From an uncultured Candidatus Saccharibacteria bacterium (GTDB lineage: Bacteria; Patescibacteriota; Doudnabacteria; UBA920), in the NCBI GenBank assembly GCA_964504715.1, contig CAZDEP010000006.1, forward strand, positions 4,748 through 68,747: DNA of 64,000 nucleotides, read 5' to 3'. Positions 2,412-42,072 of this stretch are shown piece after piece (the stretch's first letter is position 1; each line of letters begins with the position of its first letter). A program made the position numbers and the translations under genes. The notes below the pieces were generated by a model. It was given only the letters and a program-made list of their open reading frames with translations. It had not been told where the DNA came from and did no database searches.

Positions 2412-2413
2412 TT

Positions 2414-5759: not shown

Positions 5760-5789
5760 TCACGCAAATCGCCTAAAATAACGGCGGAA

Positions 5790-5893
5790 TGTCAAATCCC
5801 AAATATCAAATATCAAATGAAATCCAAATGCCAAAAGGTTAAAGTTTGCAGGTTTGGAGGTATTTGAAATTTGTCATTTGTAATTTGAAATTT
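5790..5893. repeat. Imperfect inverted repeat of tandem 7-bp CAAATNN units (locus C)
   Basis: Left arm gtcaaatcc caaatat caaatat caaatgaaatc caaatgc; right arm tttggaggt atttgaa atttgtc atttgta atttgaa attt. It directly abuts the start codon of the next gene. Confidence 0.75.
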
Positions 5894-5895
5894 TT

Positions 5896-7647
5896 ATGAT
5901 CCCCAGTATATACATAAACTTGGATGATGACGTCGCGCGAGTAGTTGCGAGGCTCAAGAAAACCCAGGCTGACAAGCTGGTTTTGGTTTGTCCCAAAAGG
6001 TGTCAGCTTTTTTCAGACAGCATAAATTTAAGGCTGCTTAAAAAACAGACCGACTTCCTCAAAAAAGAAGTTTATATTTTAACCATGGACGAGCGCGGCC
6101 AGCTTTATGCCAAAGAAGCGGGCTTTGGGCTTAAGTTTTTACCTAAAGGGAAAAACCCTTCGGCCTTTTCGGATATCCAGGTTCAGCATAAGCCGACTGC
6201 AGTTGAGCCCAAGGAATTTGGCGCAGCTTTGGCTGACAAAGTTAAAGAAGCAAAGAATTTTGTAAGCGAATTAGTCGCGTTGCCCAAAACTCAAACCCCT
6301 AAGCGAACGGAATTTAAAACCCAAGACCCGGCTAACTCAACAGCCAAAACGAGAAGCAATTTAAAGAAACCTTTGGCTCGTGCGCCTAAAATTTCCGAAG
6401 ATTTAATGCTTCCTAAAAACAGCGTTGCGAACGAGTTTTTTGAGCATTCCGCCAGTTATCCCGCCGAAGAGTCGGAAAATATAAAAAAGCCAGGTCGGCG
6501 TTGGCTCTTTAGTTTAAGCCTGGCTGCATCCCTGATTGTCGTTATGGCCTTAATTTTTGTGGTTTTACCGGCGGCCGCAGTAGATGTCTATCCTAAAACT
6601 GAACCTGTAACCCGGGATTTTGACGTGAGTTTGGACCTTAACGCCAAGCAAGCTGATGAGACCCGGTTGGTTTTGCCTGCGTCAAAAGTCGAGCAAACGC
6701 TGGAAACCTCGGCAAAATTCCAGAGTCAGGGCAAAAAAGACGTGGGAGCAAAGTCGGCCGGTTCGGTAATAATATATAATTTTACGGGACAAATATTAAA
6801 CTTGAAGGCTGCCACCACGGTAATTTCGGCTGGCAATAAAACTTATACCTTGGCTGAAGACGCCATGCAGATTAAGCCCACCAAGTACAAAAACGCGGTA
6901 ACCAAGGAAATTGACCCCGCCAGCTTAAACAGCCCTTTTGAAATTTTGGCGCAGGCCGCGGGGGAAGATTCGAATTTGCCCGCCGGCGTTAGGATGGAAA
7001 TAGCCAACCAAGTGTTCGGAAGCCGGCCGCAATTGGTATACGCAAAAACCGAAACACCGGTAAGCGGAGGGACTTCCAGGTTTTTATCGCTGGTTTCGGA
7101 AGGCGATTTGGCGGCGGCACAGGACCAGCTGGGCAAAAACCTGCTTTCCCAAGTTCAGCAGGCGTTGTCGGCAAGCCGTCAGCAATTAACTGAAAATTCT
7201 TACCGGCTGGAAGTTTTATCCTTTACGGCCGATAAGCAGGTTGGCACCGAAAGTCCGAGCTTCAACGCCACCCTCAAAGCCAAAGTTGTAGGCTTGGCTT
7301 TTTCTGAAGAAATGCTAAAAGAGTTGTTGGCCAAAAGAATCGGCCAAAATTTGTCGGAAAACCGCAAGCTAAGTTTGGGTAAAGATTTCAGCATGACTTA
7401 TAAAATTAAAACCGTGGATTTAAATATTCCTTCTGCTGTTTTGAGCGTGCATTTTGAGGGGAAAACCCAAATGAAGGTGGAAACTCAAAAATTGCCGGAA
7501 AGTTTGTTGGGCAAAACCAAGAATCAGGCCCGCGACGTTTTGGAATCCATGCCGGAAATTGAACGTGTAGATGTTACTTTAAGCCCGTCATGGCAAAAAA
7601 ACTTTCCCTGGTTTGTGGGAAAAATAAAAGTTAAGGTTATAGAATAA
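5896..7647 (+). CDS. Hypothetical single-pass membrane protein (583 aa)
   Basis: Long ORF with an internal hydrophobic helix (LFSLSLAASLIVVMALIFVVLPAAAV); no recognisable catalytic motif. Confidence 0.5.
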   Translation: MIPSIYINLDDDVARVVARLKKTQADKLVLVCPKRCQLFSDSINLRLLKKQTDFLKKEVYILTMDERGQLYAKEAGFGLKFLPKGKNPSAFSDIQVQHKPTAVEPKEFGAALADKVKEAKNFVSELVALPKTQTPKRTEFKTQDPANSTAKTRSNLKKPLARAPKISEDLMLPKNSVANEFFEHSASYPAEESENIKKPGRRWLFSLSLAASLIVVMALIFVVLPAAAVDVYPKTEPVTRDFDVSLDLNAKQADETRLVLPASKVEQTLETSAKFQSQGKKDVGAKSAGSVIIYNFTGQILNLKAATTVISAGNKTYTLAEDAMQIKPTKYKNAVTKEIDPASLNSPFEILAQAAGEDSNLPAGVRMEIANQVFGSRPQLVYAKTETPVSGGTSRFLSLVSEGDLAAAQDQLGKNLLSQVQQALSASRQQLTENSYRLEVLSFTADKQVGTESPSFNATLKAKVVGLAFSEEMLKELLAKRIGQNLSENRKLSLGKDFSMTYKIKTVDLNIPSAVLSVHFEGKTQMKVETQKLPESLLGKTKNQARDVLESMPEIERVDVTLSPSWQKNFPWFVGKIKVKVIE

Positions 7648-7997: not shown

Positions 7998-8099
7998 ATC
8001 GCAAATTCACCAATACCACAAATAGCACTAATTTTTTTCAAAAATAGAGATCTGAAATTAGTATTTGTGGAATTTGTGAAATTTGTGCATTAGTGATCA
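7998..8099. repeat. Imperfect inverted repeat of 9-bp CACNAAT units (locus B)
   Basis: Left arm atcgcaaat tcaccaata ccacaaata gcactaat; right arm attagtatt tgtggaatt tgtgaaatt tgtgcatta gtgatcac. It ends 3 nt before the rpmJ ATG. Confidence 0.8.
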
Positions 8100-8102
8100 C
8101 CT

Positions 8103-8700: not shown

Positions 8701-8775
8701 TCAAAATTACAAATTAACAATATAACAAAATAACATGTTATATTGCTATCTTGTTTAATTGTTAAATTAAATTAA

Positions 8776-9915: not shown

Positions 9916-9981
9916 TCTTTTAATCCTTCATCCTTAATTTTCGTTAAAGATTAAGGATTAAACATTAACTATATTAAAACT

Positions 9982-13534: not shown

Positions 13535-13950
13535 GCTCTAAGCAAGCTCATAAGCCGAATTCTGTTTCTTCCGCCAAAGGCGGATCGCCGAAATTAAATA
13601 AATAATCTTGGCGAAATAATCATCTCTCTGCCCATTCGATTGCTCGGAAGGGTCAAGCAGCCTACCAAATTTGGCCTTGCACTCAAGTAAGGATTTAGCC
13701 GTTTCACCCGCGATATTTCTATCACGGCTCACCCTATGCCGTATATCTTCCTTTTCGGGAAAATTCGGGTATAGGGTGTCTTTAGCCTTTCGGCCAAAGA
13801 CGTTTCTGTTCGCACCTCGAGGATTACTCCAGACGGGCGTTACCCGCTACTAATTTTGAAAACTCTATAGAGGTTCTCAAAGGAGTGTTCGGACTTTCCT
13901 CCCAGCCCTTTGAATAGAGCTGGGCGATTATTCGACTTGCTTAGAGCCAG
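13535..13950 (-). ncRNA. rnpB: RNase P RNA (bacterial type A)
   Basis: The minus-strand read has a P1 pairing (gctctaagcaag ... cttgcttagagc) and a P3 hairpin. The universally conserved P4 strands are present: GGAGGAAAGTCCGAAC at the 5' end and ACAGAATTCGGCTTA at the 3' end. It also carries GGGTAACGCC, GTGCGAACAGAAAC, AGGGTGAAACGGC and TGCAAGGCCAAAT. Confidence 0.8.
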
Positions 13951-24209: not shown

Positions 24210-24494
24210 TTATTTGTAAAATTTTTCCAAAACCAGGCGGAAACCACCTTTTTTGTTTGCCAATTCGCGGGCGCCGCGATTAACGGTCGCCACACTCACC
24301 TTGAGCTGTGTGGCAATTTCGCGATGTGGGACCGCGGCCTGGAGCCTCTTGATGATTTGCCAGCGGACGGCCAGTTCGCGGTATTCGGCGGGTGACAGTA
24401 TATCAAATAAAAATTCCCTCATCAGAGCCTTGTCTTTGCCAATTTTGCCCACCAATCCTTCTAGTTCTGCCCCATATTCGTGTTTATATTGCAT
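24210..24494 (-). CDS. TrpR/YerC/YecD-family transcriptional regulator
   Basis: Trp-repressor-like helix-turn-helix (HREIATQLKVSVATVNRGARELANK); about 94 aa. Confidence 0.7.
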   Translation of the reverse strand: MQYKHEYGAELEGLVGKIGKDKALMREFLFDILSPAEYRELAVRWQIIKRLQAAVPHREIATQLKVSVATVNRGARELANKKGGFRLVLEKFYK

Positions 24495-24510
24495 ATTTTT
24501 TCTTTTGCTT

Positions 24511-24528
24511 TAGTGTACTAGTACACTA
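24511..24528. promoter_or_regulatory. 18-bp perfect palindrome tagtgtactagtacacta (trp-operator-like ACTAGT core) over the regulator's own promoter
   Basis: Lies 17-34 nt upstream of the regulator's start codon and overlaps a minus-strand TTGACG -35 / TAGTGT -10. Confidence 0.6.
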
Positions 24529-24594
24529 GAACATGCGGATCTTCGCGTCAACTGTGGATAATTAGATCTATTTTTTGCAATTTGGATGTTTCAG

Positions 24595-24606
24595 CGTACT
24601 AGTACG
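24595..24606. promoter_or_regulatory. 12-bp palindrome cgtactagtacg abutting a TTGACA -35 box on the + strand
   Basis: cgtactagtacg ggtg TTGACA, 17 nt, then TATGTT. Confidence 0.5.
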
Positions 24607-24941
24607 GTGTTGACAATGGGACGCAGAGAGAGTATGTTTTATTCATATGGAAAATTTGGTGGCTAAAAACAATATTGCAGTTTGGTGGGGTTTGCAGACT
24701 TTCGCAAAGCCCGGTGTTTTTAGCTGACTTTTTCAGTCTCCCGATAGTTGCTTTTAACCACCTTTTGGCTTTTTGCGAAAGGTGGTTTTGTTTTGGCTGT
24801 TTTTAACATCTCGATCAAATTTGCGTATTAGCCTGCCTGCTGGCAGGTATGCTAATGCAAATGGATGTTGTTGGCAGCCAGCACAAATCCACATGGCAGG
24901 ATAAACAAGCGTGCTGGCTTGCCTGCAAAGAAGGAGGTGCG

Positions 24942-25169
24942 ATGTACTACATCGCGCAGCAGCCGTCGCCAGTGGCGACCGCAAGACTTAAAAACGCTGG
25001 GTATGGGCGGGAAGGGGGCGAACTGGCGGCTCATCAGGTTAGCGGGAATTCTGTAACCGTGACCTTCGTTGAAACGGGTTTTTTTGGCGGCTTAACCCGT
25101 CATACAATGTCTGGCGAAGAATTTAAGCGCAACTTCGCCGTTATCCGCAACAAGAGGGCCAAACGCTAA
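24942..25169 (+). CDS. Hypothetical small protein (75 aa), higher GC than surroundings
   Basis: Strong RBS AAGGAGGTG 5 nt before the ATG at 24942; it is the internal start of track ORF 24849..25169. A near-perfect GC hairpin follows the stop. Confidence 0.35.
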   Translation: MYYIAQQPSPVATARLKNAGYGREGGELAAHQVSGNSVTVTFVETGFFGGLTRHTMSGEEFKRNFAVIRNKRAKR

Positions 25170-25212
25170 AAGCGTTTCGGCCCTCTTTCCACATCAGCAT
25201 GCACGTTTTAAC

Positions 25213-25222
25213 GTACTAGTAC
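25213..25222. promoter_or_regulatory. Third GTACTAGTAC palindrome at the right edge of the island
   Basis: acgtactagtac immediately followed by the right terminal inverted repeat. Confidence 0.45.
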
Positions 25223-25695
25223 AGTAGTGCAAAAGGCGCGGGGGTGGGGAGGGTTATGGGTATATTTACCCTTTTTAGTTTACTTGGAGCATGTAGGGAG
25301 GGTTTGTGCCCAGTTGGGTGCTTTATAGTTACTGCTTGAGAGAATGTAATTTATTGAGTTTTTAGGCTCGATAAATCGAGCGACTACAAGATCATTGGAA
25401 ATTGAAATTATAATTATAATGTTGATTGCTATTGACAGCATTGGTCGGGCTGGTATAATACAGTAAGTATGAATAAATTATCGCAAAATTTCTGGTATTT
25501 CTTTTATTTTTTTACTGGCCTGCTTGGAACCAGGAATTTTGAGTTTAATCCACAGATACACATATTGCACAGATAACACTGAACAAAGGATTCAACGTAA
25601 AACTCCCGGCTTCAAGCGAAGCCGGTTTTTTGTTTACCAATACAATATAATAGCAAACAATCCGCCGAAGCGTCTGGCGTAGGCGGGTGTTATTT

Positions 25696-25771
25696 GGGGA
25701 CGTAGTTTAGTTGGTTAGAACGCCGGCCTAAAAAACCGGAAAGGCAGGTTCGAATCCTGTTGTCCCCGCCA
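25696..25771 (+). tRNA. tRNA, isotype unresolved (anticodon loop CUAAAAA; apparent anticodon AAA)
   Basis: Cloverleaf: acceptor GGGGACG pairs with TGTCCCC (one G-U pair), D-arm with GG, T-arm GCAGG-TTCGAAT-CCTGT, encoded CCA, short variable loop. The anticodon stem has a C-A mismatch and the loop is A-rich. Confidence 0.55.
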
Positions 25772-25808
25772 AAATACCCCCGCTTAGCGGGGGGAGAAGG
25801 AGGGGCTT

Positions 25809-25937
25809 ATGGAATGCCCTAATTGTAAAAAAAAGCTCATCGAAAAAGGGGATCGGGCCCTGTGTCCGAAGTGCCCTTTTCGAAGAGAAAAAAAATTGGT
25901 TGCTAACTGGCAACCGAAACTACAGGAAAAAAAGTGA
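25809..25937 (+). CDS. Small zinc-ribbon protein (42 aa)
   Basis: MECPNCKKKLIEKGDRALCPKCPFRREKK... with two CPxC pairs; strong RBS AGAAGGAGGGG 6 nt upstream. A perfect hairpin ccccccgcttagcgggggg lies between the tRNA and this ORF. Confidence 0.4.
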   Translation: MECPNCKKKLIEKGDRALCPKCPFRREKKLVANWQPKLQEKK

Positions 25938-26077
25938 TGGGATTTGCCATTTGGCGCAAGGAATTTGGATCTCTATCTTTCGGTAGTTCTCGATAAACTC
26001 GAACACTACTCACGAACACGGAGAGCATTTTCCTAGCCCCAAAAGGCCAAGCTTTGTTATCCAGGAAAGGAGGCGGT

Positions 26078-26146
26078 ATGTACGAACCGTACCGTAACCC
26101 CGAGGTAGAACGGGGCGCAATACTATTCTACCGGCCGGAAACTTAA
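26078..26146 (+). CDS. 22-codon upstream ORF with a consensus RBS, overlapping a terminator hairpin (possible leader peptide)
   Basis: AAGGAGG 6 nt before the ATG. The stop codon sits inside the hairpin ccggaaacttaatgtttccgg, which is followed by a T-run. Confidence 0.25.
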   Translation: MYEPYRNPEVERGAILFYRPET

Positions 26147-26170
26147 TGTTTCCGGCTCTTTTCTTTTTAA
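26135..26170 (+). terminator. Rho-independent terminator/attenuator in the secA leader
   Basis: ccggaaac-ttaatg-tttccgg plus ctcttttcttttt. Confidence 0.5.
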
Positions 26171-26271
26171 CCTGAATTAGGTATAATTTATTGGCATTTA
26201 TTATTTAAGGGATCCCCTCACTCATCCTCGGATGCACTCGGATTCAAGGCCTGGGATGACAACAAAAGCTA

Positions 26272-29034
26272 ATGTCTTTTTTATCCAAACTATTCGGCGG
26301 TGAATCGCCCGCTATCGACAAATACCAAAAAGAACTTGACGCGGTCAATGTTTTTAAAAGTGAAGTTGAGAAATTGACACAGGAAAAAATTCAAGAAGAA
26401 GTAGCAAGTATCAAGGGTCAAGTATCAAGCTTAAAGACAAAAGAAGAAATAAAAAACAAGTTGAAAGAAGTTAGGCCACGCGTGTTTGCTTTAGTCAGGG
26501 AAGCGGCCAAAAGAACCATAGGCCAGACGCATTATGACGTGCAAATTGTCGGCGGCCTGGCTTTGTCGGACAACCGCATAGCGGAAATGAAGACCGGCGA
26601 AGGCAAAACACTCACTGCCACGCTGCCTTTAGTCTTGTATGCTTTGGCAGGCAAGGGCGCGCATTTGGTAACCGTCAACGACTATTTAGGCCGGTGGCAA
26701 GCCTCCCTTATGGGCCCGATTTTCCATTACTTGGGCTTAACTGTTTCTTCCATCCAGCATGAAGCTTCTTTTTTATATGATCCCACTTACCAACCCGAGG
26801 CGGAAGAACTCGAAAAGCTGGAAGGCCAGACCGAAGGTTTGGTAATGGATGTAAAGCACATGAGGCCGATTGCGAGAAAAGAGGCCTATGCTTCCGACAT
26901 AACTTACGGCACCAACAACGAATTCGGTTTTGATTATTTGCGGGACAATATGGCCCAGCGGGCCCAAAGCATGGTCCAAAGGCCTTTGTTTTTTGCCATT
27001 GTCGACGAAGTTGACTCAATTTTAATTGACGAAGCCAGGACGCCGCTTATAATTAGCGCGCCCGATACAGACCCGACTGACAAGTACGTGCAGTTTGCAA
27101 AGCTGGTTGGTCAGCTAAACGAAGGCGAGCACTATTCCGTAGACGAAAAACACAAAGCCGCGAGTTTGACCGATTCCGGCATTAACAAAATTGAAGAAAT
27201 TTTGCGCGTGCCCAATATTTACGACACGAGCAAGGGCGTGACCACCATCCACCACATAGAGCAGGCTTTGCGTGCCAAAACTTTGTTTAAAATTGACCGC
27301 GACTACGTAACGCGCAACGGGGAAATAGTGATTGTGGACGAATTCACCGGCAGGCTCATGTTTGGCCGGAGGTATTCCGAAGGCCTTCACCAGGCCATAG
27401 AAGCCAAGGAGGGAGTAAAAATCCAAGCCGAAAGCAAAACTCTTGCCACTATTACTTTTCAAAATTTGTTTCGCCTTTACGATTTTTTGTCCGGTATGAC
27501 AGGTACGGCTAAAACCGAAGAGGAAGAATTTTTCAAAATTTACCGCCTGCAGGTGGAAATTATCCCCACTAACCGGCCGATGGTAAGGAACGATGCGGCC
27601 GATGTGGTCTATAAAACCGAAAAAGCAAAATTTGAAGCCATTGCCAAAGAAGTCGCACTTAGGCATAAAAAAGGCCAGCCGATTTTGATTGGCACGGTCA
27701 GCATTGCCAAGAACGAACTTTTGGCCGATGAACTTAAAAAACAGGGCTTAAGTTTTGAGCTTTTAAATGCCAAAAACCACGAACGTGAAGCGCATATTAT
27801 TGCCCAGGCAGGACGGCTTGGAGCCATTACTTTGGCTACCAACATAGCCGGTCGCGGCGTGGACATTCTTTTGGGCGGAAATCCCATTGACCAGGAGGAA
27901 GCCAAAGCTGTGCGTGAGGCAGGCGGCCTGCACGTTTTGGGGACCGAGCGGCATGAATCTCGTAGGATCGACAACCAGCTTAGGGGCCGCGCAGGACGCC
28001 AGGGCGACCCGGGTTCTTCGCAGTTTTTCGTTTCCATGGAAGACGACCTCATGAGGCTTTTCGGCGGCGAACGGATGAAATCCCTCATGACGACTTTAGG
28101 CATACCCGACGACCAGCCCATAGAAGCCAAAATGGTTTCCCGCTCCATTGAATCGGCGCAAAAAAAGATTGAAGGCCTAAATTTTGACACCCGCAAGCAC
28201 GTCTTGGAATTCGACGATGTATTAAACCATCAACGCAATATTATTTATAAAATTCGCAGGCGCTATTTGCCCGGCTATGAACCGAAAGTGGACGAAGCCG
28301 GCCAACCGTTTGACCTTAAAAAAGAAATTTTGGAAATTGCGCGTGAGGAAGTAAGTAATTTGGTATTGAGTATACTTAATGCCGAAGTTCCGTCCGAAAA
28401 TAAGGCTTCCCAGGTTGACGAAGTAATTAAAGCGCTTGGGTCAATTTTTACAGTCCCCGAAGAGCTTAAAAGTAAAATTAAGGACGAATTTCCAAACGCC
28501 GCGGACAGGGAATTTGCCATAACGGATGCAACTCTGGTGGAACTGGAAAAATTCTGGGATGCAAAGGCGCAAGAATTCACGAAAGAAGGCTTTGAAAGCG
28601 TGGCACAGTATATAGCACTTCAAAATTTGGACGCCTTATGGATGGAGCACTTGGATACCATGGACCATCTGCGCGACAGCGTAAGGCTTCGCGGCTACGG
28701 TCAAAGGGACCCGTTGGTGGAATACAAAAAGGAAGGCTTTGGCATGTTCCAGAGGCTGGTGAAGGAAATAAACCGGCAAATAGTCTTTACAATTTTCAAA
28801 GTTAATATTCAAGTTAATCCAAATGTCCCTGCTCAGGAAGTCCAAATGGTGACAAATAGGACAGATACGACAAATACGTCGAATAGGACCAATGAGAATG
28901 TCGGCCGCAACGATCCCTGCCCATGCGGCAGCGGGAAAAAGTGGAAGAAATGCGGAATGCAAAATACCCAGGAACACCAAATAAATATGGCCAAAGGCAC
29001 CAGTCAAAAGCATGCGGCCAAGGTGGGAGGGTAG
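26272..29034 (+). CDS. secA: Preprotein translocase ATPase SecA
   Basis: DEAD-like motor motifs (MKTGEGKTLTATLP, TVNDYL), helical scaffold, and C-terminal SEC-C zinc finger CPCGSGKKWKKCG. Confidence 0.95.
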   Translation: MSFLSKLFGGESPAIDKYQKELDAVNVFKSEVEKLTQEKIQEEVASIKGQVSSLKTKEEIKNKLKEVRPRVFALVREAAKRTIGQTHYDVQIVGGLALSDNRIAEMKTGEGKTLTATLPLVLYALAGKGAHLVTVNDYLGRWQASLMGPIFHYLGLTVSSIQHEASFLYDPTYQPEAEELEKLEGQTEGLVMDVKHMRPIARKEAYASDITYGTNNEFGFDYLRDNMAQRAQSMVQRPLFFAIVDEVDSILIDEARTPLIISAPDTDPTDKYVQFAKLVGQLNEGEHYSVDEKHKAASLTDSGINKIEEILRVPNIYDTSKGVTTIHHIEQALRAKTLFKIDRDYVTRNGEIVIVDEFTGRLMFGRRYSEGLHQAIEAKEGVKIQAESKTLATITFQNLFRLYDFLSGMTGTAKTEEEEFFKIYRLQVEIIPTNRPMVRNDAADVVYKTEKAKFEAIAKEVALRHKKGQPILIGTVSIAKNELLADELKKQGLSFELLNAKNHEREAHIIAQAGRLGAITLATNIAGRGVDILLGGNPIDQEEAKAVREAGGLHVLGTERHESRRIDNQLRGRAGRQGDPGSSQFFVSMEDDLMRLFGGERMKSLMTTLGIPDDQPIEAKMVSRSIESAQKKIEGLNFDTRKHVLEFDDVLNHQRNIIYKIRRRYLPGYEPKVDEAGQPFDLKKEILEIAREEVSNLVLSILNAEVPSENKASQVDEVIKALGSIFTVPEELKSKIKDEFPNAADREFAITDATLVELEKFWDAKAQEFTKEGFESVAQYIALQNLDALWMEHLDTMDHLRDSVRLRGYGQRDPLVEYKKEGFGMFQRLVKEINRQIVFTIFKVNIQVNPNVPAQEVQMVTNRTDTTNTSNRTNENVGRNDPCPCGSGKKWKKCGMQNTQEHQINMAKGTSQKHAAKVGG
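26395..26430 (+). repeat. In-frame 7-bp periodic CAAGTAT repeat inside secA (encodes EEVASIKGQVSSLK)
   Basis: gaagtag CAAGtat CAAGggt CAAGtat CAAGc; a near-identical DNA segment occurs in pepN at 31513-31554. Confidence 0.6.
28843..28895 (+). repeat. In-frame 9-bp periodic ACAAATAGG-type repeat inside secA, just before the zinc finger (encodes QMVTNRTDTTNTSNRTNEN)
   Basis: caaatggtg acaaatagg acagatacg acaaatacg tcgaatagg accaatgag. It nearly matches the left arm of intergenic locus A (acaaatac acgaatacc accaatat). Confidence 0.65.
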
Positions 29035-29271
29035 CTATAAAAATGCCCGGACAATAATATGGAAAAATATACTATCGAAATTGAAACTTCAGCGGGCTGG
29101 ATACAATATCACAGCATTATGCGGCCGGGACAAGAGAGAGCTAAAATAATCCTTAAAGAATTACAGGATAAGTTTCCCAGTTCAAAATTTAGAATTGTGG
29201 TGTGGGAGGGGAAAGAAATTTAGAAATTTAAATTAACATAAATCTTTAATCTTAAATTTAATATCTAATTT

Positions 29272-29559
29272 ATGTCACACGATTACCTCAAAAAAGAACC
29301 GTCAAAAACCGAAAAAATGCTTTACGAGCTCGCTATGAACCAGAACCAAATGCAAAAAGGCTTATGGTCCACTTCCACGGTGGCAATGGCTGCAGCAATT
29401 GCCGCAAAAATTAAGCCGGAAGAGTTGGCGGCATTAATTGTCGATGACGCGAAAATCAAAGAATTCAGCGAAAAAGTAAACGAAGTAATAAAAAAATTGG
29501 AGTCGGAAAAGCATGCGGGCCACGAGCATGCAGCTGAAGTAGAAAAGAAGAACACTTAA
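29272..29559 (+). CDS. Hypothetical protein (95 aa)
   Basis: ORF with a plausible AT-rich leader; no recognisable motif. Confidence 0.4.
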   Translation: MSHDYLKKEPSKTEKMLYELAMNQNQMQKGLWSTSTVAMAAAIAAKIKPEELAALIVDDAKIKEFSEKVNEVIKKLESEKHAGHEHAAEVEKKNT

Positions 29560-29757
29560 AGGAAATTTAGGAGACCTGCGCTACCAAAAGTTTTCTTGGT
29601 GATTTTGTAGGGCGCAGCAAGAGCGCGGACTTACCTCATAATTCTTAGGATATATATTCGGACAAAAATTTATTGAAGAAAACAGTAGCGAGTTTTCGAT
29701 CAAGGTCTAACCGAACGGAAAATCTCCGACACTTTTAACTTATTGGATAAAAACTTA

Positions 29758-30216
29758 ATGGAAAAGGAAAGGCCAAAAATCGGAATTGGGGTTTATATTG
29801 TCAATAATAAGAATGAGCTTTTGTTAATGCTTAGAAAGGGAGTAAAGGGTGCGGGGAAATGGTCGCCCCCGGGGGGTCATTTGGAAATAGGGGAAGAATT
29901 TTTCGATACTGTAAAAAGGGAAACAAAAGAAGAGGTGGGGATTGACGTTTTTGAGGCGGAATTTTTGGCACTAGGGAACAACATAATGCCTGATAGGCAT
30001 TATGTAAATATAGATTTTCTTGTTTCAAAATATAGTGGCAGTCCCCATAACCTTGAACCTGAAAAATGCGCCGAAATACGATGGTTCAGCCTCGCTAACC
30101 TGCCACAACCGTTGTTTGAACCCACGGAGTACTTGCTTAAAAGGAACCCTAAATGTTTATGTCGAAGCGGAAAAAATTACTCTGATTGCCACGGTAAAAC
30201 TAACCATCCCAACTAA
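29758..30216 (+). CDS. Nudix hydrolase with a C-terminal SEC-C-type zinc motif
   Basis: Nudix box GGHLEIGEEFFDTVKRETKEEVGI; C-terminus KCLCRSGKNYSDCHG matches the SEC-C CxC..SG..Y..CHG pattern. ATG at 29758 (track ORF uses TTG at 29743). Confidence 0.8.
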   Translation: MEKERPKIGIGVYIVNNKNELLLMLRKGVKGAGKWSPPGGHLEIGEEFFDTVKRETKEEVGIDVFEAEFLALGNNIMPDRHYVNIDFLVSKYSGSPHNLEPEKCAEIRWFSLANLPQPLFEPTEYLLKRNPKCLCRSGKNYSDCHGKTNHPN

Positions 30217-30232
30217 CTTCTTGGAAAAAACT

Positions 30233-30823
30233 ATGCTTTATTTTATAACCGGAAACAAAAAAAAGTTTTTTGAGGCCAGTCAAATTATGCCTAAACTTAA
30301 GCAATTAGACATAAGTTTGCCGGAAATCCAAGAATTAGATATTAAGAAAATTATTGTTTTTAAGCTTAAACAAGCCTTTTTGCATCACAAGGGCCCTTTT
30401 TTAATTGAGGACAGCGGGGTTTGCCTTGGGGCTTTAGGAAATAAACTGCCCGGACCTTTGGCTAAGTGGTTCAACGATACTATCGGTCCAGATGGTTATT
30501 TTAAGCTTGCAAAAAAGTTCAAAAATTTTAAAGCTTTTGCTGTTACAATTGTTGCGTATGCCCAAAACGCTAAAAATATTAAATTTTTTGAAGGCAGGGT
30601 AAACGGCACTGTGGTCAAGCCCAGGGGCCAATACCGCTTTGGCTATGACGAAATTTTAGTTCCTAACGGGTCCAAATTCACCCTGTCGGAATTGAAAGCC
30701 GGGGGTAACTTCACTTTGAGCCCTCGTGGACTGGCTTTTAGGAAACTTAAGGATTATTTGTATGGCAAAGCAAAAATTAAACGAAAAGCAAAGAAGACTC
30801 GACAAGATAGCAAAAGAAATTGA
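30233..30823 (+). CDS. rdgB: Non-canonical purine NTP pyrophosphatase (Ham1/RdgB, dITP/XTPase)
   Basis: MLYFITGNKKKFFEA ... FGYDEILVP. The upstream part of track ORF 30020..30823 overlaps the Nudix gene and is not part of the protein. Confidence 0.75.
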   Translation: MLYFITGNKKKFFEASQIMPKLKQLDISLPEIQELDIKKIIVFKLKQAFLHHKGPFLIEDSGVCLGALGNKLPGPLAKWFNDTIGPDGYFKLAKKFKNFKAFAVTIVAYAQNAKNIKFFEGRVNGTVVKPRGQYRFGYDEILVPNGSKFTLSELKAGGNFTLSPRGLAFRKLKDYLYGKAKIKRKAKKTRQDSKRN

Positions 30824-31331
30824 GGCGTGCGAAATTTGCAAAGTGGGCAAGATCGGCCAAGCAGTGCCCGGCGAGGGCAATGCGGATGCCGATGTTGTTT
30901 TTATAGGCGAAGCGCCGGGCAAGCAGGAGGCGGTCACGGGCCGGCCTTTTATTGGCAGGGCCGGAAAGGTTTTAAGGGGTTTGATTAAGCAAGTTGGTTT
31001 GAATGAAAAAAACGTTTTTATTACAAGCCCGGTAAAATATCTGCCCGAATATGTCACCCCCAAACCCGCTGACATTGAGCATGGGAGGACGCATCTTTTT
31101 AAGCAACTAGACATAATTCGGCCCAAGGTGGTGGTATTACTCGGCAACGTGGCCGTTCAAGCGCTTTTGCACGAAAAAATGGCAATTGCCAAAGAGCATG
31201 GTAAAATAGTAAACAGGGACGGAATTACGTATTTAATTACTTACCACCCCGCCGCCCCGCTCTACAGCCCAAAAGTCAGGTTGGAGTTGGAAAAAGATTT
31301 TAAAAAATTGAAAAGTCTATCAGTCGTATAG
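30762..31331 (+). CDS. Uracil-DNA glycosylase, family 4 (Fe-S type)
   Basis: ACEICKVGK ... GEGNADADVVFIGEAPGKQEAVTGRPFIGRAGKVL; overlaps the rdgB 3' end by about 60 nt. Confidence 0.8.
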   Translation: MAKQKLNEKQRRLDKIAKEIEACEICKVGKIGQAVPGEGNADADVVFIGEAPGKQEAVTGRPFIGRAGKVLRGLIKQVGLNEKNVFITSPVKYLPEYVTPKPADIEHGRTHLFKQLDIIRPKVVVLLGNVAVQALLHEKMAIAKEHGKIVNRDGITYLITYHPAAPLYSPKVRLELEKDFKKLKSLSVV

Positions 31332-31332
31332 T

Positions 31333-33900
31333 ATGAAAAATATCAAAAAACAATCCGTACGTTTATCTGCTTTCATTAAACCCGAAAACTACAAGCTCCT
31401 TATCAAACCTGATTTGGAGGGTTTTACGTTTGAGGGGGAAGAGACAATATCAATTAAGCTGGAAAAGTCCGTAGCATCTATAACACTGCACGCAAAGGAG
31501 CTCGACATATCCGAAGTAGAGTATCAAGTAGCAAGAATCAAGTATCAAGCAAGGGAGATAAAATACGACAATAAGTCGGAAACAGCAACTTTCATTTTTG
31601 CCCGTAATTTGCCAAAGGGCAGGGGGGCCTTGAATTTAAAATTCAAGGGCATATTGAATGACCATATGCGCGGGTTTTACCGCAGCCGGTACCTTCACAA
31701 CGGCAAGGAAAAACATTTGGCCACCACCCAATTTGAGGCCACGGACGCCAGAAGGGCTTTCCCGTGTTTTGACGAGCCCGCGCAAAAGGCGATTTTTGAC
31801 ATAACGGTAATGGTGCCGCCCGGCCTGACGGCCATATCTAACACCGTGGAATCGAAAATTACCGAACACGAATCCGGCTATAAAGTGGTGGAGTTTGCCC
31901 CCACGCCTAAAATGTCCACATACTTGGTGGCTTTTATAGTAGGCGATTTCGAATTTATTGAAGGCAAGACCAAGTCGGGGACAGCAGTGAGGGTTTTTGT
32001 GACGCCGGGGAAAAAGCACCAGGCCAAATTTGCTTTGGAGTGCGCAATAAAAACTTTGGAATTTTACAATAAGTATTTTGATATTCCCTATCCCTTGCCG
32101 ATTCTTGACCTGATTGCCATTCCGGATTTTAGCCATGGCGCCATGGAAAATTGGGGCGCGGTAACTTACCGCGAATCCGCGCTTTTGGTTGATCCCGAAA
32201 ATTCTTCCGCTGCCAACAAACAATGGGTGGCGCTTGTAATTGCCCACGAACTCGCGCACCAATGGTTCGGTAATTTGGTCACCATGCAGTGGTGGACGGA
32301 TTTGTGGCTGAATGAAGGTTTTGCATCTTATATTGAATACCTGGCAGTCGACCACTTGTTTCCTTCTTGGGATATTTGGACTCAGTTTGCTTACAACGAT
32401 TTGGGCATAGCGTTAAAACTGGACGCGCTTAAATCCACCCACCCAATTGAAGTTGAGGTTAGGCACCCCGACGAAATCGGCGAAATTTTTGACGAAGTCA
32501 GCTATTCAAAAGGTGCCAGCGTAATCCGCATGCTGGCCAATTACCTGGGCGAACGTGATTTTATGGACGGCTTAAGGCATTATTTAAAAAAACATGCCTA
32601 TCAAAATACGCGGACAGTGGATTTGTGGCGGGCGTTTGAAAGAATTTCCAAAAAACCGGTGAGCAAAATTATGAAGAATTGGACGGGCAAACCCGGCTAC
32701 CCGCTTATTAAAGTTATCCAAAAACCGCGGGGGATAGGGCTTGCCCAATCCCGCTTTTTTTCTTCGCCGCTTTCTAAAAAACAGGCTAAAGACAAGACGC
32801 TTTGGGATATCCCGGTAAAAATTTCGAATGACAAATTACAAATTTCAAATGAGATCTTAAAAGCCAAATCACAAACCCTCACAAAGCCCCAGGGCCAAAT
32901 GTTTAAGCTCAACTTTGGCGAGTCTTCCCTGGTGCGCGTAGATTACCCGGCGCAACTTTTGCAAAAGCTTCATGGGCCGATTAAAAGCAAAAAGCTCCCG
33001 GCTCTGGACCGTTTAGGCTTAATCCGCGACGCCTTTGCTTTGGCCGAAAGCGGGGATTTGCCTTCTGCCCAGGCTTTGGAGCTTGCCATGCATTATATTA
33101 ATGAAAATGACTATACCGTTTGGCTGGAGCTTGTTTCAGGCCTTCATTCGGTTGATAATTTGCTGGCCGGGCAAAATTTCCAAAGCCAATTCCGGCATTT
33201 TGCAGTCGGTTTGCTTAAACAGATGCTAAAAAATGTGGGATGGAAAGCTCAGGCCAATGAACCGCACACCAAGAGCCTTTTAAGGAGCCTTATTTTAAGT
33301 GCCAGCGGCAACTTTAAAAATCCGGAAGTAATTCTGGAAGCAAAAAATAGGTTTGACGGGTGGATGCGGAAAAATAAAAAAATCACCCCTGATTTAAGAG
33401 GTGTGGTTTACTCAGTTGCTGCGGAAAACGGCGGACATAAAGAACATAGTTTTTTAATCAATGCTTACAAAACAGAAGCCCTGCACGAAGAAAAAAACCG
33501 CATTGGCCGCGCTTTGGGCCTGTTTAATTCCGAGGCTTTGGTAAAAAAAACCTTGGAATTTGCTTTGTCGGAAGGCGTTAGGCCACAGGATACGCCGGGA
33601 ATTTTCCTTTCCTGCTGGCAAAACCAAAACCAGAGGGCTCAAGTCTGGAAGTTTACTAAGCAGCACTGGCAAGAGCTTTTAAAGCGCTACCCGTCGTCTG
33701 GCCATATGCTTAACCGTTTTATAAAACCCGCCGGTCTTTTTGCGGACAAAGCCCGGGCAAAAGAAGTTGGTAATTTTTTCAAAGCCCATAAGGCGCCGGG
33801 GGCACAAAGGGCAATTGAACAAGTCGTAGAAAAAATTCTTTCCAATGCCGAATGGCTGGGAAGGGACGGGGGGAAAATACAAAATTGGCTAATGCAGTAA
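31333..33900 (+). CDS. pepN: Aminopeptidase N (M1 family zinc metallopeptidase)
   Basis: GAMENWGAVTYRE and HELAHQWFGNLVTMQWWTDLWLNEGFA (HEXXH-18-E). Confidence 0.9.
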   Translation: MKNIKKQSVRLSAFIKPENYKLLIKPDLEGFTFEGEETISIKLEKSVASITLHAKELDISEVEYQVARIKYQAREIKYDNKSETATFIFARNLPKGRGALNLKFKGILNDHMRGFYRSRYLHNGKEKHLATTQFEATDARRAFPCFDEPAQKAIFDITVMVPPGLTAISNTVESKITEHESGYKVVEFAPTPKMSTYLVAFIVGDFEFIEGKTKSGTAVRVFVTPGKKHQAKFALECAIKTLEFYNKYFDIPYPLPILDLIAIPDFSHGAMENWGAVTYRESALLVDPENSSAANKQWVALVIAHELAHQWFGNLVTMQWWTDLWLNEGFASYIEYLAVDHLFPSWDIWTQFAYNDLGIALKLDALKSTHPIEVEVRHPDEIGEIFDEVSYSKGASVIRMLANYLGERDFMDGLRHYLKKHAYQNTRTVDLWRAFERISKKPVSKIMKNWTGKPGYPLIKVIQKPRGIGLAQSRFFSSPLSKKQAKDKTLWDIPVKISNDKLQISNEILKAKSQTLTKPQGQMFKLNFGESSLVRVDYPAQLLQKLHGPIKSKKLPALDRLGLIRDAFALAESGDLPSAQALELAMHYINENDYTVWLELVSGLHSVDNLLAGQNFQSQFRHFAVGLLKQMLKNVGWKAQANEPHTKSLLRSLILSASGNFKNPEVILEAKNRFDGWMRKNKKITPDLRGVVYSVAAENGGHKEHSFLINAYKTEALHEEKNRIGRALGLFNSEALVKKTLEFALSEGVRPQDTPGIFLSCWQNQNQRAQVWKFTKQHWQELLKRYPSSGHMLNRFIKPAGLFADKARAKEVGNFFKAHKAPGAQRAIEQVVEKILSNAEWLGRDGGKIQNWLMQ
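31513..31554 (+). repeat. In-frame CAAGTAT repeat inside pepN (encodes EVEYQVARIKYQAREIKY)
   Basis: gaagtag agtat CAAGtag CAAGaat CAAGtat CAAG CAAGg; shares gaagtag and caagtatcaagc with the secA copy. Confidence 0.6.
32821..32880 (+). repeat. In-frame CAAAT-family repeat inside pepN (encodes ISNDKLQISNEILKAKSQ)
   Basis: atttcgaatgacaaattacaaatttcaaatgag ... gccaaatcacaaaccctcacaaag; same units as the intergenic arrays. Confidence 0.55.
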
Positions 33901-33910
33901 CGGCCGGAAA

Positions 33911-33960
33911 TACCAAATGACAAATGACAAATCCCAATTAAATTCCAAAATCAAAATTTT
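33911..33960 (+). repeat. CAAAT-family repeat spanning the start codon of the L,D-transpeptidase gene (encodes MTNDKSQLNSKIKILK)
   Basis: ccaaatgacaaatgacaaatcccaattaaattccaaaatcaaaatttt. Confidence 0.55.
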
Positions 33961-34597
33961 AAAGCCTCGGCCGCAAGCAGGGCGCAGTTTAAAAAATCGT
34001 TTGATTTACCGGCTGGCGTGGTGCTTGTTTGCAGCCGTGTTAATTTTGGCAAGTCCGCTGCAATTTGCTCTCGCACAGGAAAATACCGACTCGGACGCCG
34101 ACGGTTTGTCAGATTACCTGGAAATAAATATTTACCGGACCGACCCTAAGCGCGCGGACACTGACGGGGACGGTTATATTGACGGCGTGGAGATTGAAAA
34201 TTCTTACGATCCGAATAAGCCTTACGACGACAAAATTTCAAAAGTCATCGGCGTCAGTTTAAAAGACCAAACGCTCACTTATTCTTTGGGACCCTATATT
34301 TTAAAAACTATTTTTATATCTTCCGGCCTGTCCTCCACCCCGACTCCGCCGGGAGAATACGCGGTAGAAAAAAAGCTGCCTTTGGTAACCTACCGCGGCC
34401 GCAACTATTATTATCCAAATACCAAATGGAATATGCTGTTTAAAAGCGGCTCAAAAGGCGGGTATTATATTCATGGCGCTTATTGGCATAATAATTTTGG
34501 CAAACCCATGAGCCATGGCTGCATTAACGTTTCTTATACAGAAATGCAGCCCCTTTACGAATGGGCCGATGTGGGCACAAGGCTAATAATTGAATAG
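33917..34597 (+). CDS. L,D-transpeptidase (YkuD domain) with N-terminal calcium-binding-like D-x-D repeats
   Basis: Catalytic HG...SHGC (YYIHGAYWHNNFGKPMSHGCINV) and DSDADGLSDY ... DTDGDGYIDGVE. Confidence 0.8.
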   Translation: MTNDKSQLNSKIKILKPRPQAGRSLKNRLIYRLAWCLFAAVLILASPLQFALAQENTDSDADGLSDYLEINIYRTDPKRADTDGDGYIDGVEIENSYDPNKPYDDKISKVIGVSLKDQTLTYSLGPYILKTIFISSGLSSTPTPPGEYAVEKKLPLVTYRGRNYYYPNTKWNMLFKSGSKGGYYIHGAYWHNNFGKPMSHGCINVSYTEMQPLYEWADVGTRLIIE

Positions 34598-34645
34598 CTG
34601 GCACAAGCTTGCATTATCTAAAAATCCCGCTATAATATCTTAAGT

Positions 34646-39649: not shown

Positions 39650-39753
39650 GCTTTGCATATCTCTACGAAATACTAAAACTCTTATATAATCATTGTTATT
39701 TAATTTATTTCGTATTTAGTATTTCGTCCCTTTAGTATTTAGTAGAAGAACCT

Positions 39754-41932: not shown

Positions 41933-42072
41933 TTTTTTCCTTTCGCAATTACTTTTTGCCAAACTATTTTATCCACAATTAAAAGTCTTGTCAATCATAT
42001 ATACTGAATATAAGAATTATTGATTTAAAAGCCATTTTAATAACAAATACCAAAACCAAATCGGCTGTCTTA

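What the first reader, a model, noticed from the sequence alone, without database searches (positions are those of the whole stretch)
26395..26430. A second short repeat (7-bp period, CAAGTAT) inserted in-frame near the N-termini of both secA and pepN
secA 26395-26430 reads gaagtag CAAGtat CAAGggt CAAGtat CAAGc, encoding EEVASIKGQVSSLK. pepN 31513-31554 reads gaagtag agtat CAAGtag CAAGaat CAAGtat CAAG CAAGg, encoding EVEYQVARIKYQAREIKY. The two share the 7-mer gaagtag, the 12-mer caagtatcaagc, and the 15-mer gtagcaagtatcaag with one mismatch.

Two unrelated essential genes carrying the same roughly 40-bp periodic DNA segment in frame is hard to explain by convergent protein evolution. The CAAGTAT unit is one transition away from the CAAATAT unit of intergenic locus C, so this may be a diverged subfamily of the same element.
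Basis: seen in the sequence. Interest (0 to 1): 0.6.

Follow-up and report, generated by a model that had tools for sequence, protein, structure and literature searches.

The report
In-frame 7-base repeats in secA, pepN
Two housekeeping genes of an uncultivated Patescibacterium each carry a short run of 7-base DNA repeats read in frame; these were not inserted but formed in place in the most variable parts of the proteins, and their units change together over evolution, which makes them an unusual example of a known but unexplained bacterial repeat class.

Summary
secA (26398-26432) and pepN (31513-31554) each carry 4-5 in-frame copies of a CAAGTAT-like heptamer and share an exact 12-mer (expected 0). 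The interpretation as an insertion fails: the 40 closest homologs of each protein, and distant SecAs, have a segment of the same length there.

- **DNA-level feature.** Resampling synonymous codons almost never reproduces the periodicity (<=1/20,000).
- **Conserved position, changing unit.** Relatives at 70-76% protein identity have heptamer arrays at the same positions and phase, but with other units (CAAATTn, nAGATTn, yAGGTTT; AGAAGTA, CGAATTn).
- **Concerted evolution.** Units resemble each other within a genome more than their positional counterparts across genomes (0/20,000 permutations).
- **Permissive sites.** The arrays lie in the most variable protein windows.
- **General excess.** Period 7 is uniquely over-represented here and in about 2 Mb of other bacteria, including inside long ORFs.

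Best reading: these are heptanucleotide simple-sequence repeats, a known and unexplained prokaryotic class. They are tolerated in permissive coding segments and kept homogeneous by misalignment in 7-nt register without length change.

I found no mobile element and no copy-number variation, and no RNA family, RNA structure or promoter signal. A functional binding array is not excluded.

The parts
26272..29034 (+). secA gene (920 aa), host of the first array
   Evidence: ORF list. Pfam hits SecA_DEAD, SecA_PP_bind, P-loop_SecA, SecA_SW and SEC-C.
26398..26432 (+). secA heptamer array: five units GAAGTAG CAAGTAT CAAGGGT CAAGTAT CAAGCTT, codons 43-54 (EVASIKGQVSSL). A weaker AAG phasing continues to 26459.
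   Evidence: Same position and phase in 9 of 10 clade genomes. Synonymous resampling 1/20,000. The most variable 13-residue window of the first 660 residues.
31333..33900 (+). M1-family aminopeptidase gene (pepN-like, 855 aa), host of two arrays
   Evidence: ORF list. Pfam hits Peptidase_M1_N, Peptidase_M1 and ERAP1_C.
31513..31554 (+). pepN heptamer array 1: GAAGTAG AGTAT CAAGTAG CAAGAAT CAAGTAT CAAG CAAGG, codons 61-74 (EVEYQVARIKYQAR)
   Evidence: Arrays at the same site in 6 of 8 clade genomes, with other units. Resampling 0/20,000. Top 1.8% most variable window of the protein.
32816..32861 (+). pepN heptamer array 2: AAATTTC GAATGAC AAATTAC AAATTTC AAATGAG, about codons 495-510 (KISNDKLQISNEIL)
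   Evidence: Orthologous arrays in L082 (AAATTTC x4, score 21/24) and L084 (CAAAATC x3, 20/24). Resampling 28/20,000. The single most variable window of the protein.
28851..28893 (+). 9-nt array in the secA C-terminal linker (GACAAATAC-like x4.8, codons 860-874). Same kind of repeat but an in-frame period.
   Evidence: Lies in the most variable window of SecA.
33902..33944 (+). Heptamer array over the pepN-ykuD spacer and the ykuD start codon (CAAATAC CAAATGA CAAATGA CAAATCC). Same class, intergenic.
   Evidence: An orthologous array exists in L082 (CAATTTC-type).
29234..29274 (+). Intergenic heptamer array ending a few bases before the ATG at 29272 (TAAATCT-type). Same class.
5783..5901 (.). 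Intergenic pair of heptamer arrays in inverted orientation, (CAAATnn)x5 ... (ATTTGnn)x5, ending at the ATG of the gene at 5896.

Best explanation
The two segments are short heptanucleotide simple-sequence repeats that formed in place inside pre-existing, weakly constrained parts of the two proteins. These parts are an N-terminal helix of SecA and a variable stretch (presumably a loop) in the M1 N-domain. A third array lies at the catalytic/C-terminal domain junction of PepN.

Three 7-nt units make 21 nt, or 7 codons, so an array is read through all three phases of its unit. It can sit in frame provided the unit has no stop in any phase and the resulting peptide is tolerated.

**Shown:**
- The arrays are DNA-level features.
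- They are not insertions.
- They occupy the most variable protein windows.
- They persist at the same positions, in the same phase and at the same length across a Doudnabacteria-like subclade.
- Their units change in concert within each genome, including at synonymous sites.

**Inferred:** the homogenising force is replication misalignment in a 7-nt register. The nascent strand pairs transiently with the neighbouring unit, copies a few bases and realigns. This converts one unit toward its neighbour without changing length. Selection on reading frame, length and residue type removes everything else. For example, unit 3 of the secA array, which encodes residue 49, deviates from the consensus in most genomes.

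On this reading the arrays have no dedicated function. The identical CAAGTAT unit in secA and pepN is a lineage-specific coincidence within a narrow permitted repertoire (purine-purine-purine-T-A/T), or the result of a rare ectopic templating event.
For: - **No insertion:**
- **DNA-level periodicity beyond the peptide:** observed score 19/24 against a resampled mean of 9-10, reached in <=1/20,000 draws. The arrays use this genome's two rarest Ser codons, TCA and AGT, each where the repeat phase requires it.
- **Same site and phase, different units:** 9 of 10 clade genomes for secA, 6 of 8 for pepN site 1 and 3 of 8 for pepN site 2.
- **Lineage restriction:** 76 more distant Patescibacteria SecA genes score like other periods at this site.
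- **Concerted evolution:** mean unit identity within a genome is 4.64 of 7, against 4.01 for the same unit position across genomes (secA). For pepN the values are 4.60 and 3.04. No permutation out of 20,000 reaches the observed value, and the result holds with one genome per lineage.
- **Synonymous sites follow the unit type:** K/R48 is AAG, AAA, AGA or AGG, and Q50 is CAA or CAG.
- **Permissive sites:** PepN arrays lie in the #1 and #3 most variable windows. The SecA array is the top window of the first 660 residues. The 9-nt array is in the #1 window of SecA. The same sites accept unrelated inserts in other genomes.
- **Period 7 is uniquely in excess:** 8 arrays against 0.07 expected in the window. 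In ORFs >=250 aa there are 18, 19 and 19 period-7 arrays, against 0-5 for any other period that is not a multiple of 3, in three sequence sets.
- **Unit composition:** units are diverse and A/T-rich, and none dominates.
- **Birth and decay:** there are lineage-specific births (L081 murC) and decay (L166 pepN).
- **Strain difference:** the only change inside an array between near-identical strains makes a unit identical to its neighbour.
- **Literature:** heptanucleotide repeats are the most abundant long-SSR class in most prokaryotic genomes, and polymerase slippage with a 7-nt contact was proposed to explain this (summarised in PMC4679880, and in PMC4692102).
Against: - The homogenising mechanism is inferred, not observed. 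No slippage variant, +/-7 nt allele or copy-number difference was seen in any comparison.
- Persistence of a 5-unit imperfect array in an essential gene across lineages whose SecA proteins are only 70-76% identical is longer than one would naively expect for a neutral short repeat.
- Unit choice is not random. CAAAT and AAATT cores are 5-7 times enriched.
- In the window's lineage two genes share exactly the same unit and an exact 12-mer. A purely local process does not predict this.
- The intergenic arrays of this genome sit directly upstream of start codons that lack an obvious Shine-Dalgarno sequence. This hints at function for at least that subset.
Confidence: 0.6

Rival explanations
1. 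The arrays are selected cis-elements: rows of 7-nt docking sites for an oligomerising nucleic-acid-binding protein. One candidate type is an OB-fold protein of the cold-shock or S1 kind, binding one molecule per heptamer on the mRNA. Another is a ribbon-helix-helix protein of the omega type, binding one dimer per 7 bp on the DNA. Because the genome is compact, such arrays would be placed in the only coding segments that tolerate them.
For: - Position, phase and copy number (4-5 or more contiguous units) are retained across the subclade.
- CAAAT and AAATT cores are 5-7 times enriched among units.
- Intergenic arrays of the same genome lie immediately upstream of start codons without an obvious SD. 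Published TAACTGA heptamers do the same, and S1, Csp or CsrA binding was proposed for them (PMC4679880).
- Omega protein needs >=4 contiguous 7-bp heptads, in direct or inverted orientation (PMC9499535).
- secA and pepN share a unit in the window's lineage.
Against: - Units differ between arrays of one genome. In L084 they are CAAATTn, AGAAGTA and CAAAATC. They also differ between genomes at one site.
- secA/pepN unit covariation is not significant with one genome per lineage (24/120 and 66/120 permutations).
- Arrays are lost in some lineages (L166 pepN; pepN site 2 in 5 of 8 genomes).
- They sit exactly where protein constraint is weakest.
- There is no Rfam family, no significant RNA structure (z -1.1, -0.14, +0.65) and no excess of promoter-like sites.
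- The same excess of period 7, with unrelated units, is seen in many phyla.
Confidence: 0.2
2. One reading: one roughly 40-bp periodic element, a diverged subfamily of an intergenic repeat, was inserted in frame into both genes. This would resemble a miniature mobile element such as the Rickettsia palindromic elements.
For: - The two arrays share a 7-mer, an exact 12-mer and a near-identical 15-mer, far beyond chance.
- Other genomes do carry a true in-frame insert at these same sites. It is a GC-rich hairpin, CCCTCCCC-GTCAA-GGGGAGGG, encoding HPSLSLPVKGRE, found in SecA of L169 and in PepN P0026 and P0034.
- The clade's SecA is about 6-7 residues longer than most SecAs just downstream of the array, within the weakly phased stretch 26431-26459.
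Against: - There is no length difference at either array among the 40 closest homologs of each protein, nor against distant SecAs.
- The Pfam domain match shows no extra residues.
- Orthologs have arrays of the same length and phase but with other units, so the segment evolved in place.
- There are no terminal inverted repeats and no shared flanks.
- No other copies occur in the window on either strand.
Confidence: 0.03
3. The arrays are contingency loci. Slipped-strand gain or loss of a 7-nt unit would switch the genes off and on by frameshift (phase variation).
For: - Tandem units that are not a multiple of 3, near the 5' end of a gene, are the classic architecture.
- 7-bp repeats act as phase-variable elements in Haemophilus (papers listed).
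Against: - SecA is a core part of the general secretion system and is generally essential (established knowledge), so an OFF state would be lethal.
- The arrays are imperfect and only 4-5 units long.
- No unit-number difference exists between two strains at 99.6% identity or among orthologs.
- All assemblies carry the in-frame form.
Confidence: 0.04
4. Chance, or peptide-level convergence in an A-rich, lysine-rich genome.
For: The unit repertoire is A/T-rich. The peptides are of a common amphipathic type.
Against: - Shuffle controls.
- Synonymous resampling.
- Recurrence at orthologous sites.
Confidence: 0.01

Closest known systems
Over-represented heptanucleotide long simple-sequence repeats of prokaryotic genomes (Mrazek, Guo and Shah 2007, as summarised in PMC4679880 and PMC4692102)
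   Same: - Tandem 7-nt units.
- Period 7 is singled out over 5, 8, 10 and 11, both here and in about 2 Mb of unrelated bacterial loci.
- Units are diverse.
- A polymerase-slippage origin was proposed.
   Different: - The published description places repeats with units that are not multiples of 3 mainly outside genes, and stresses copy-number change.
- Here the arrays are in frame inside conserved domains of housekeeping genes and have fixed length.
- They are retained at orthologous positions and evolve in concert without indels.
TAACTGA heptamer direct repeats of marine Beggiatoaceae, cyanobacteria and Bacteroidetes (MacGregor 2015, PMC4679880)
   Same: - 2-6 or more tandem heptamers.
- Mostly directly upstream of start codons, as for this window's intergenic arrays.
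- A minority lie inside ORFs and are translated as a 7-residue repeat (LSVISYQ), mostly where the protein tolerates it.
   Different: - One specific unit dominates those genomes, and related heptamers are rarely repeated. Here units differ from site to site.
- ORF-internal copies there lie at protein ends. Here they lie inside the SecA motor domain and the M1 N-domain.
GGGNATC heptamer repeats of Xanthomonas and Nostoc (Rehm 2015, PMC4692102) and the heptanucleotide tandem repeats reported in the cyanobacterium Calothrix (cited there)
   Same: Dispersed tandem heptamers with a preference for about four units.
   Different: - Those repeats are G-rich, quadruplex-forming and under-represented in coding regions.
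- These arrays are A/T-rich and show no predicted structure.
Omega (ParB of pSM19035) heptad operators / parS sites (PMC9499535)
   Same: Contiguous, unspaced 7-bp units in direct or inverted orientation, with four or more needed for activity. The intergenic inverted array pairs in this window resemble that layout.
   Different: - The WATCACW consensus is absent.
- Those sites overlap promoters and are bound by a cognate ribbon-helix-helix protein encoded next to them. No such protein or promoter was identified here.
- Units are not uniform within a genome.
Rickettsia palindromic elements (in-frame insertions of a small mobile repeat into protein genes; recalled from memory, Ogata et al. 2000, not checked here)
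   Same: DNA repeats translated as part of housekeeping proteins at structurally permissive sites.
   Different: - Those are insertions of about 100-150 bp, palindromic, with presence/absence polymorphism.
- These arrays are not insertions, not palindromic and only about 35 nt long.
- The GC-rich hairpin insert seen in L169, P0026 and P0034 at the same sites is the better analogue.

Membership tests
Prokaryotic heptanucleotide simple-sequence repeats | Head-to-tail copies of a 7-nt unit, three or more | tested here: met
   Tandem Repeats Finder gives 4.3-4.6 copies at 76-82% matches at all three coding sites. The units were read directly.
Prokaryotic heptanucleotide simple-sequence repeats | Period 7 in excess over neighbouring periods in the genome | tested here: met
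   8 arrays against 0.07 expected at 18/24. Periods 4, 5, 8, 10, 11 and 13 give 0-1. The same holds in relatives and in unrelated bacteria.
Prokaryotic heptanucleotide simple-sequence repeats | Copy-number polymorphism through slippage (typical of the class, not strictly defining) | tested here: not met
   No indel in any array between strains at 99.6% identity. Same length in orthologs. Only two strains were available.
In-frame mobile miniature elements (RPE / MITE-like) | Segment present in some orthologs and cleanly absent in others | tested here: not met
   No gap at the arrays in 40+40 close homologs or in distant SecAs.
In-frame mobile miniature elements (RPE / MITE-like) | Dispersed copies with conserved ends or terminal inverted repeats | tested here: not met
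   The only matches in the window are the two arrays themselves, both on the + strand. Flanks are unrelated. Only 64 kb of the genome was searched.
Omega-type heptad operator / centromere arrays | Four or more contiguous 7-bp units | tested here: met
   Five units in secA and four to five in pepN.
Omega-type heptad operator / centromere arrays | Unit consensus WATCACW | tested here: not met
   Units are CAAGTAT or CAAATnn. The consensus is taken from PMC9499535.
Omega-type heptad operator / centromere arrays | Overlap with a promoter and a cognate ribbon-helix-helix protein encoded nearby | tested here: inconclusive
   Promoter-like matches are at chance level in 26000-34600 (15 against 12.5 expected). 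Neighbouring small ORFs were not searched systematically for RHH proteins.
TAACTGA-type heptamer repeats | Unit TAACTGA | tested here: not met
   No array in the window has this unit.
TAACTGA-type heptamer repeats | Location within a few nucleotides upstream of a start codon | tested here: not met
   The secA and pepN arrays lie 126 and 180 nt inside the genes. The window's intergenic arrays do meet this feature.
Phase-variable contingency loci | Unit-number variation that switches the reading frame | tested here: not met
   All copies are in frame and of equal length.

The most novel reading that the evidence does not exclude
The heptamer arrays are maintained by selection as register-tolerant landing pads for a protein with a 7-nt footprint. 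This could be a cold-shock/S1-type protein on mRNA or an omega-like ribbon-helix-helix protein on DNA. In this reading they form a genome-wide regulatory or organisational code in these reduced genomes. The code would be written into 5' leaders where space allows and into the most permissive codons of long genes such as secA and pepN where it does not, with units drifting together with the binding protein.
Probability: 0.15. Interest if true: 0.8.

Novelty: new variant of a known kind. Interest (0 to 1): 0.5.

Why it matters
According to the papers read here, the excess of 7-nt tandem repeats in prokaryotes has been known since 2007. One of them (2015) states that no detailed literature on heptameric repeats existed.

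Arrays locked inside essential reading frames cannot change length. They therefore separate two things that are normally confounded: gain or loss of units, and homogenisation of units. Here homogenisation clearly occurs without length change, even at synonymous sites.

That gives a concrete, countable prediction: substitutions should be templated by the base 7 nt away. It also gives a natural test bed for the polymerase-register idea against the binding-site idea.

The case also shows a DNA-level process rewriting short protein segments. A 7-nt DNA repeat necessarily encodes a 7-residue peptide repeat. This may be one source of rapid change in the variable segments of otherwise conserved proteins.

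Tried and rejected
- **Insertion or mobile element.** Rejected by alignments and by the absence of other copies or shared flanks.
- **Close relatives in GTDB species genomes.** They served as an outgroup only.
- **Metagenome scan with a clade-specific SecA N-terminal alignment.** It gave only five clade members. Most useful DNA came from exact-protein look-ups.
- **First periodicity threshold (20/24).** Too strict to count anything, so it was relaxed.
- **Known RNA families.** Nothing at the arrays.
- **RNA structure around the arrays, either strand.** Not different from shuffles.
- **Sigma-70-like promoters and intrinsic terminators.** At chance level. One weak minus-strand match overlaps the pepN array.
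- **Strain-level copy-number variation.** None found.
- **Within-genome covariation of secA and pepN units.** Nominal p = 0.03 with all genomes, but not significant once the window, L081 and L166 are counted as one lineage.
- **A single dominant unit, as for uptake sequences or TAACTGA.** Not found.
- **GC-content drift as the cause of the concerted A/G states.** Rejected, because A-G and G-A types are each internally uniform.
Full report
**What is in the window.** The window is 44% G+C. Its best protein matches are named Candidatus Doudnabacteria or Patescibacteria by their sources.

The ORF 26272-29034 is SecA and 31333-33900 is an M1-family aminopeptidase.

- The pepN segment reads GAAGTAG AGTAT CAAGTAG CAAGAAT CAAGTAT CAAG CAAGG at 31513-31554.
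- Tandem Repeats Finder calls period 7 at both sites. It also calls it at a third site in pepN (32819-32850) and finds a period-9 array near the end of secA (28851-28893).

The shared words are far beyond chance:

| Word | Matches | Expected |
|---|---|---|
| CAAGTATCAAGC, exact | 2 | 0.00 |
| CAAGTATCAAG, <=1 mismatch | 5, all at these two sites | 0.65 |
| GTAGCAAGTATCAAG, <=2 mismatches | 4 | 0.08 |

**Not an insertion.**
- Distant SecA proteins align without a gap across the repeat-encoded peptide. It corresponds to the universal LKxKTxEFKxRL helix. The only extra residues, about 6-7 (TKEEIKNK...), lie downstream of it.
- Among the 40 closest homologs of each protein, the segment has the same length in all SecAs but one. 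In about three quarters of the PepNs the length is identical, and four differ by a single residue. The remaining exceptions carry unrelated inserts.
- Pfam's M1 N-terminal domain matches 183 residues to 186 profile positions.

**The periodicity belongs to the DNA, not the peptide.** I kept each peptide and redrew codons from this genome's own usage.

| Site | Draws reaching the observed 19/24 | Resampled mean |
|---|---|---|
| secA | 1 of 20,000 | 9.0 |
| pepN site 1 | 0 of 20,000 | 9.9 |
| pepN site 2 | 28 of 20,000 | 12.6 |

The secA array uses three different serine codons (AGT, TCA, AGC), each where the repeat phase requires it. TCA and AGT are the rarest serine codons in the window.

**Orthologs.** Exact-protein look-ups gave contigs from relatives whose SecA is 73-76% identical, and more than 90% identical in L166. 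Their PepNs are up to 75% identical. The order secA ... pepN-ykuD-secD-secF is conserved in most of them.

At the secA site, 9 of 10 genomes have a five-unit heptamer array in the same phase:

| Genomes | Unit |
|---|---|
| window, L166, L081 | CAAGTAT type |
| L084, L170, L172 | CAAATTn |
| L082, L086 | nAGATTn |
| L171 | yAGGTTT |

All fit N-A-R-R-T-W-N, but each genome is internally uniform for the two purine positions (A-G, A-A, G-A or G-G). Synonymous sites follow the unit type: Lys/Arg48 is AAG, AAA, AGA or AGG, and Gln50 is CAA or CAG.

At pepN site 1, six of eight genomes have arrays. Their units are CAAGTAT, nnnGTAT, CGAATTn, AGAAGTA (four nearly perfect copies), GGAATTn and AGAGTTA.

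At pepN site 2, three of eight genomes have arrays (AAATTnC, AAATTTC x4, CAAAATC x3).

76 more distant Patescibacteria SecA genes show nothing special at the site.

**Concerted evolution.** Units are more alike within a genome than the same unit position is across genomes. The values are 4.64 against 4.01 of 7 for secA, and 4.60 against 3.04 for pepN.

When units are shuffled among genomes within each unit position, no permutation out of 20,000 reaches the observed homogeneity. The result holds with one genome per lineage.

Drift in G+C content cannot explain this, because the A-G and G-A types are each uniform.

**Where the arrays sit in the proteins.** I computed entropy profiles over 120 homologs of each protein.
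- The two PepN arrays fall in the #1 and #3 most variable 13-residue windows (top 0.4% and 1.8%).
- The SecA heptamer array is the most variable window of the first 660 residues.
- The 9-nt array lies in the most variable window of the whole SecA protein.
- The same sites accept unrelated in-frame inserts elsewhere, for example a GC-rich hairpin encoding HPSLSLPVKGRE in SecA of L169 and in PepN P0026 and P0034.

**Period 7 is special, and not only here.**
- In the window, at 18 of 24 matches, period 7 gives 8 arrays against 0.07 expected. Period 9 gives 3. Periods 4, 5, 8, 10, 11 and 13 give 0-1.
- The same holds in 672 kb of other Patescibacteria loci and 1.4 Mb of loci from diverse bacteria.
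- Inside ORFs of at least 250 aa, period 7 gives 18, 19 and 19 arrays in the three sets. Every other period that is not a multiple of 3 gives 0-5.
- Units are diverse and A/T-rich (mean G+C 0.32). CAAAT and AAATT cores are 5-7 times enriched, but no unit dominates.

**Literature.** Two papers state that heptameric repeats are over-represented among simple repeats in many bacterial genomes. They add that a 7-nt contact with DNA polymerase was proposed to favour slippage, and that coding regions mostly hold units that are multiples of three (PMC4692102; PMC4679880).

The second paper describes TAACTGA heptamer arrays directly upstream of start codons. A minority lie inside ORFs, mostly at protein ends, and are translated as LSVISYQ repeats.

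Contiguous 7-bp heptads are also the binding sites of the omega/ParB protein of plasmid pSM19035, which needs at least four units (PMC9499535).

**Tests for a conventional cis-function.**
- No Rfam family matches at the arrays.
- RNA folding energies do not differ from shuffles (z -1.1, -0.14, +0.65).
- Promoter- and terminator-like matches are at chance level.
- A strain 99.6% identical over both genes (L168) has about 80 substitutions from secA onward and no indel in any array. The single change inside an array, 31543 T>A, makes unit 3 identical to unit 2.
- Unit sharing between secA and pepN is not significant across genomes once the window, L081 and L166 are treated as one lineage.

**Interpretation.** The evidence fits heptanucleotide simple-sequence repeats that arose in place in weakly constrained protein segments.

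They appear to be kept homogeneous by misalignment in a 7-nt register without net length change. Selection on frame, length and residue type limits what is seen.

The first part is shown. The mechanism of homogenisation is inferred.

A selected binding array is the main rival, at about 0.2. It is favoured by the long retention, the unit preference and the leader-like placement of the intergenic arrays. It is disfavoured by unit heterogeneity within genomes, losses in some lineages, and the exact coincidence with the least constrained protein windows.

The mobile-element, phase-variation and chance explanations are contradicted by the data.

**Verdict.** It is a new variant of a known but poorly understood repeat class: in frame, fixed in length, retained at orthologous positions and evolving in concert inside housekeeping genes of a candidate-phyla bacterium.

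Noticed in passing
window 5862-5893, 8736-8775, 9944-9968, 29239-29266, 33902-33932, 39697-39744, 42039-42061: Most intergenic gaps carry a degenerate A/T-rich array of period 7-9. It ends a few bases before the start codon, or overlaps it, and no obvious Shine-Dalgarno sequence is present. The genes concerned include ribosomal protein genes. This resembles the published TAACTGA leader arrays.
   Followed up: partly
window 5783-5825 vs 5856-5901; 8702-8735 vs 8736-8768: Intergenic arrays come as inverted pairs: (CAAATnn)x5 ... (ATTTGnn)x5, and (CAAnnTAA)x4 / (TTAnnTTG)x4. The two halves could pair as a long imperfect A/U-rich hairpin in the leader.
   Followed up: no
window 2376-2413 and 8063-8102: Two near-identical leaders, (ATTTGTGnA)x3 followed by TTAGTGATC. 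They lie immediately upstream of the ATG of alanyl-tRNA synthetase (2414) and of ribosomal protein L36 (8103). Gene identities are from Pfam. A shared regulatory leader is possible.
   Followed up: partly
L169 10001-10330 (SecA codons 53-67); PepN homologs P0026, P0034, P0040: A small GC-rich hairpin (CCCTCCCC-GTCAA-GGGGAGGG) is translated in frame as HPSLSLPVKGRE. It occupies the secA array site in one genome and the pepN array site in others. This looks like a genuine in-frame miniature insertion element that targets the same permissive sites.
   Followed up: partly
window 24289-26271 vs L168: The roughly 2 kb upstream of secA is very divergent between two strains that are otherwise 99.6% identical. 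It contains a tRNA at 25696-25768 and a Trp-repressor-like gene at 24210-24494 (minus strand). The differences include many substitutions, a 145-bp indel at 25239 and several smaller indels.
   Followed up: no
L166 (ENA ERZ964708 contig, 41,959 bp): Its SecA falls in the same 90% cluster as the window's (87.6% nt identity). The PepN only about 1.5 kb downstream of it is just 75% identical at protein level. This suggests mosaic ancestry or recombination between related lineages.
   Followed up: no
window 28851-28893: A 9-nt array (GACAAATAC-like, 4.8 copies) encodes the low-complexity linker TNRTDTTNTSNRTNE just before the zinc-binding C-terminus of SecA. It lies in the most variable window of the protein.
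   Followed up: partly
L081 5194-5240 (murC codon ~368): A heptamer array (AGAATTC x4, score 20/24) lies inside murC of one relative only, and was not flagged in the other loci that carry murC. It is an apparent recent birth of a coding array.
   Followed up: no
L047 8938-9007, 18922-19032, 22152-22191; L064 27-226 and 8284-8416: A Clostridia genome (Anaerosolibacter) carries long perfect heptamer arrays outside genes: CTAACGG repeated at least 7 times and AGTAGCC over about 110 bp. A Hydrogenedentota MAG carries clusters of inverted GAGTCGT/GACTCAA arrays. This shows how widespread and varied the class is.
   Followed up: no
window 13535-13943 (minus strand); 25696-25768; 60665-60737: A bacterial RNase P RNA (class A, 108 bits) and two tRNA genes. 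These are the only Rfam matches in the window.
   Followed up: no
window 46028-46061 (in the Mur ligase gene 45639-46964): A G+C-rich heptamer array (CTACCCG-like, 4.4 copies) lies inside a Mur ligase gene. It was not compared with orthologs.
   Followed up: no
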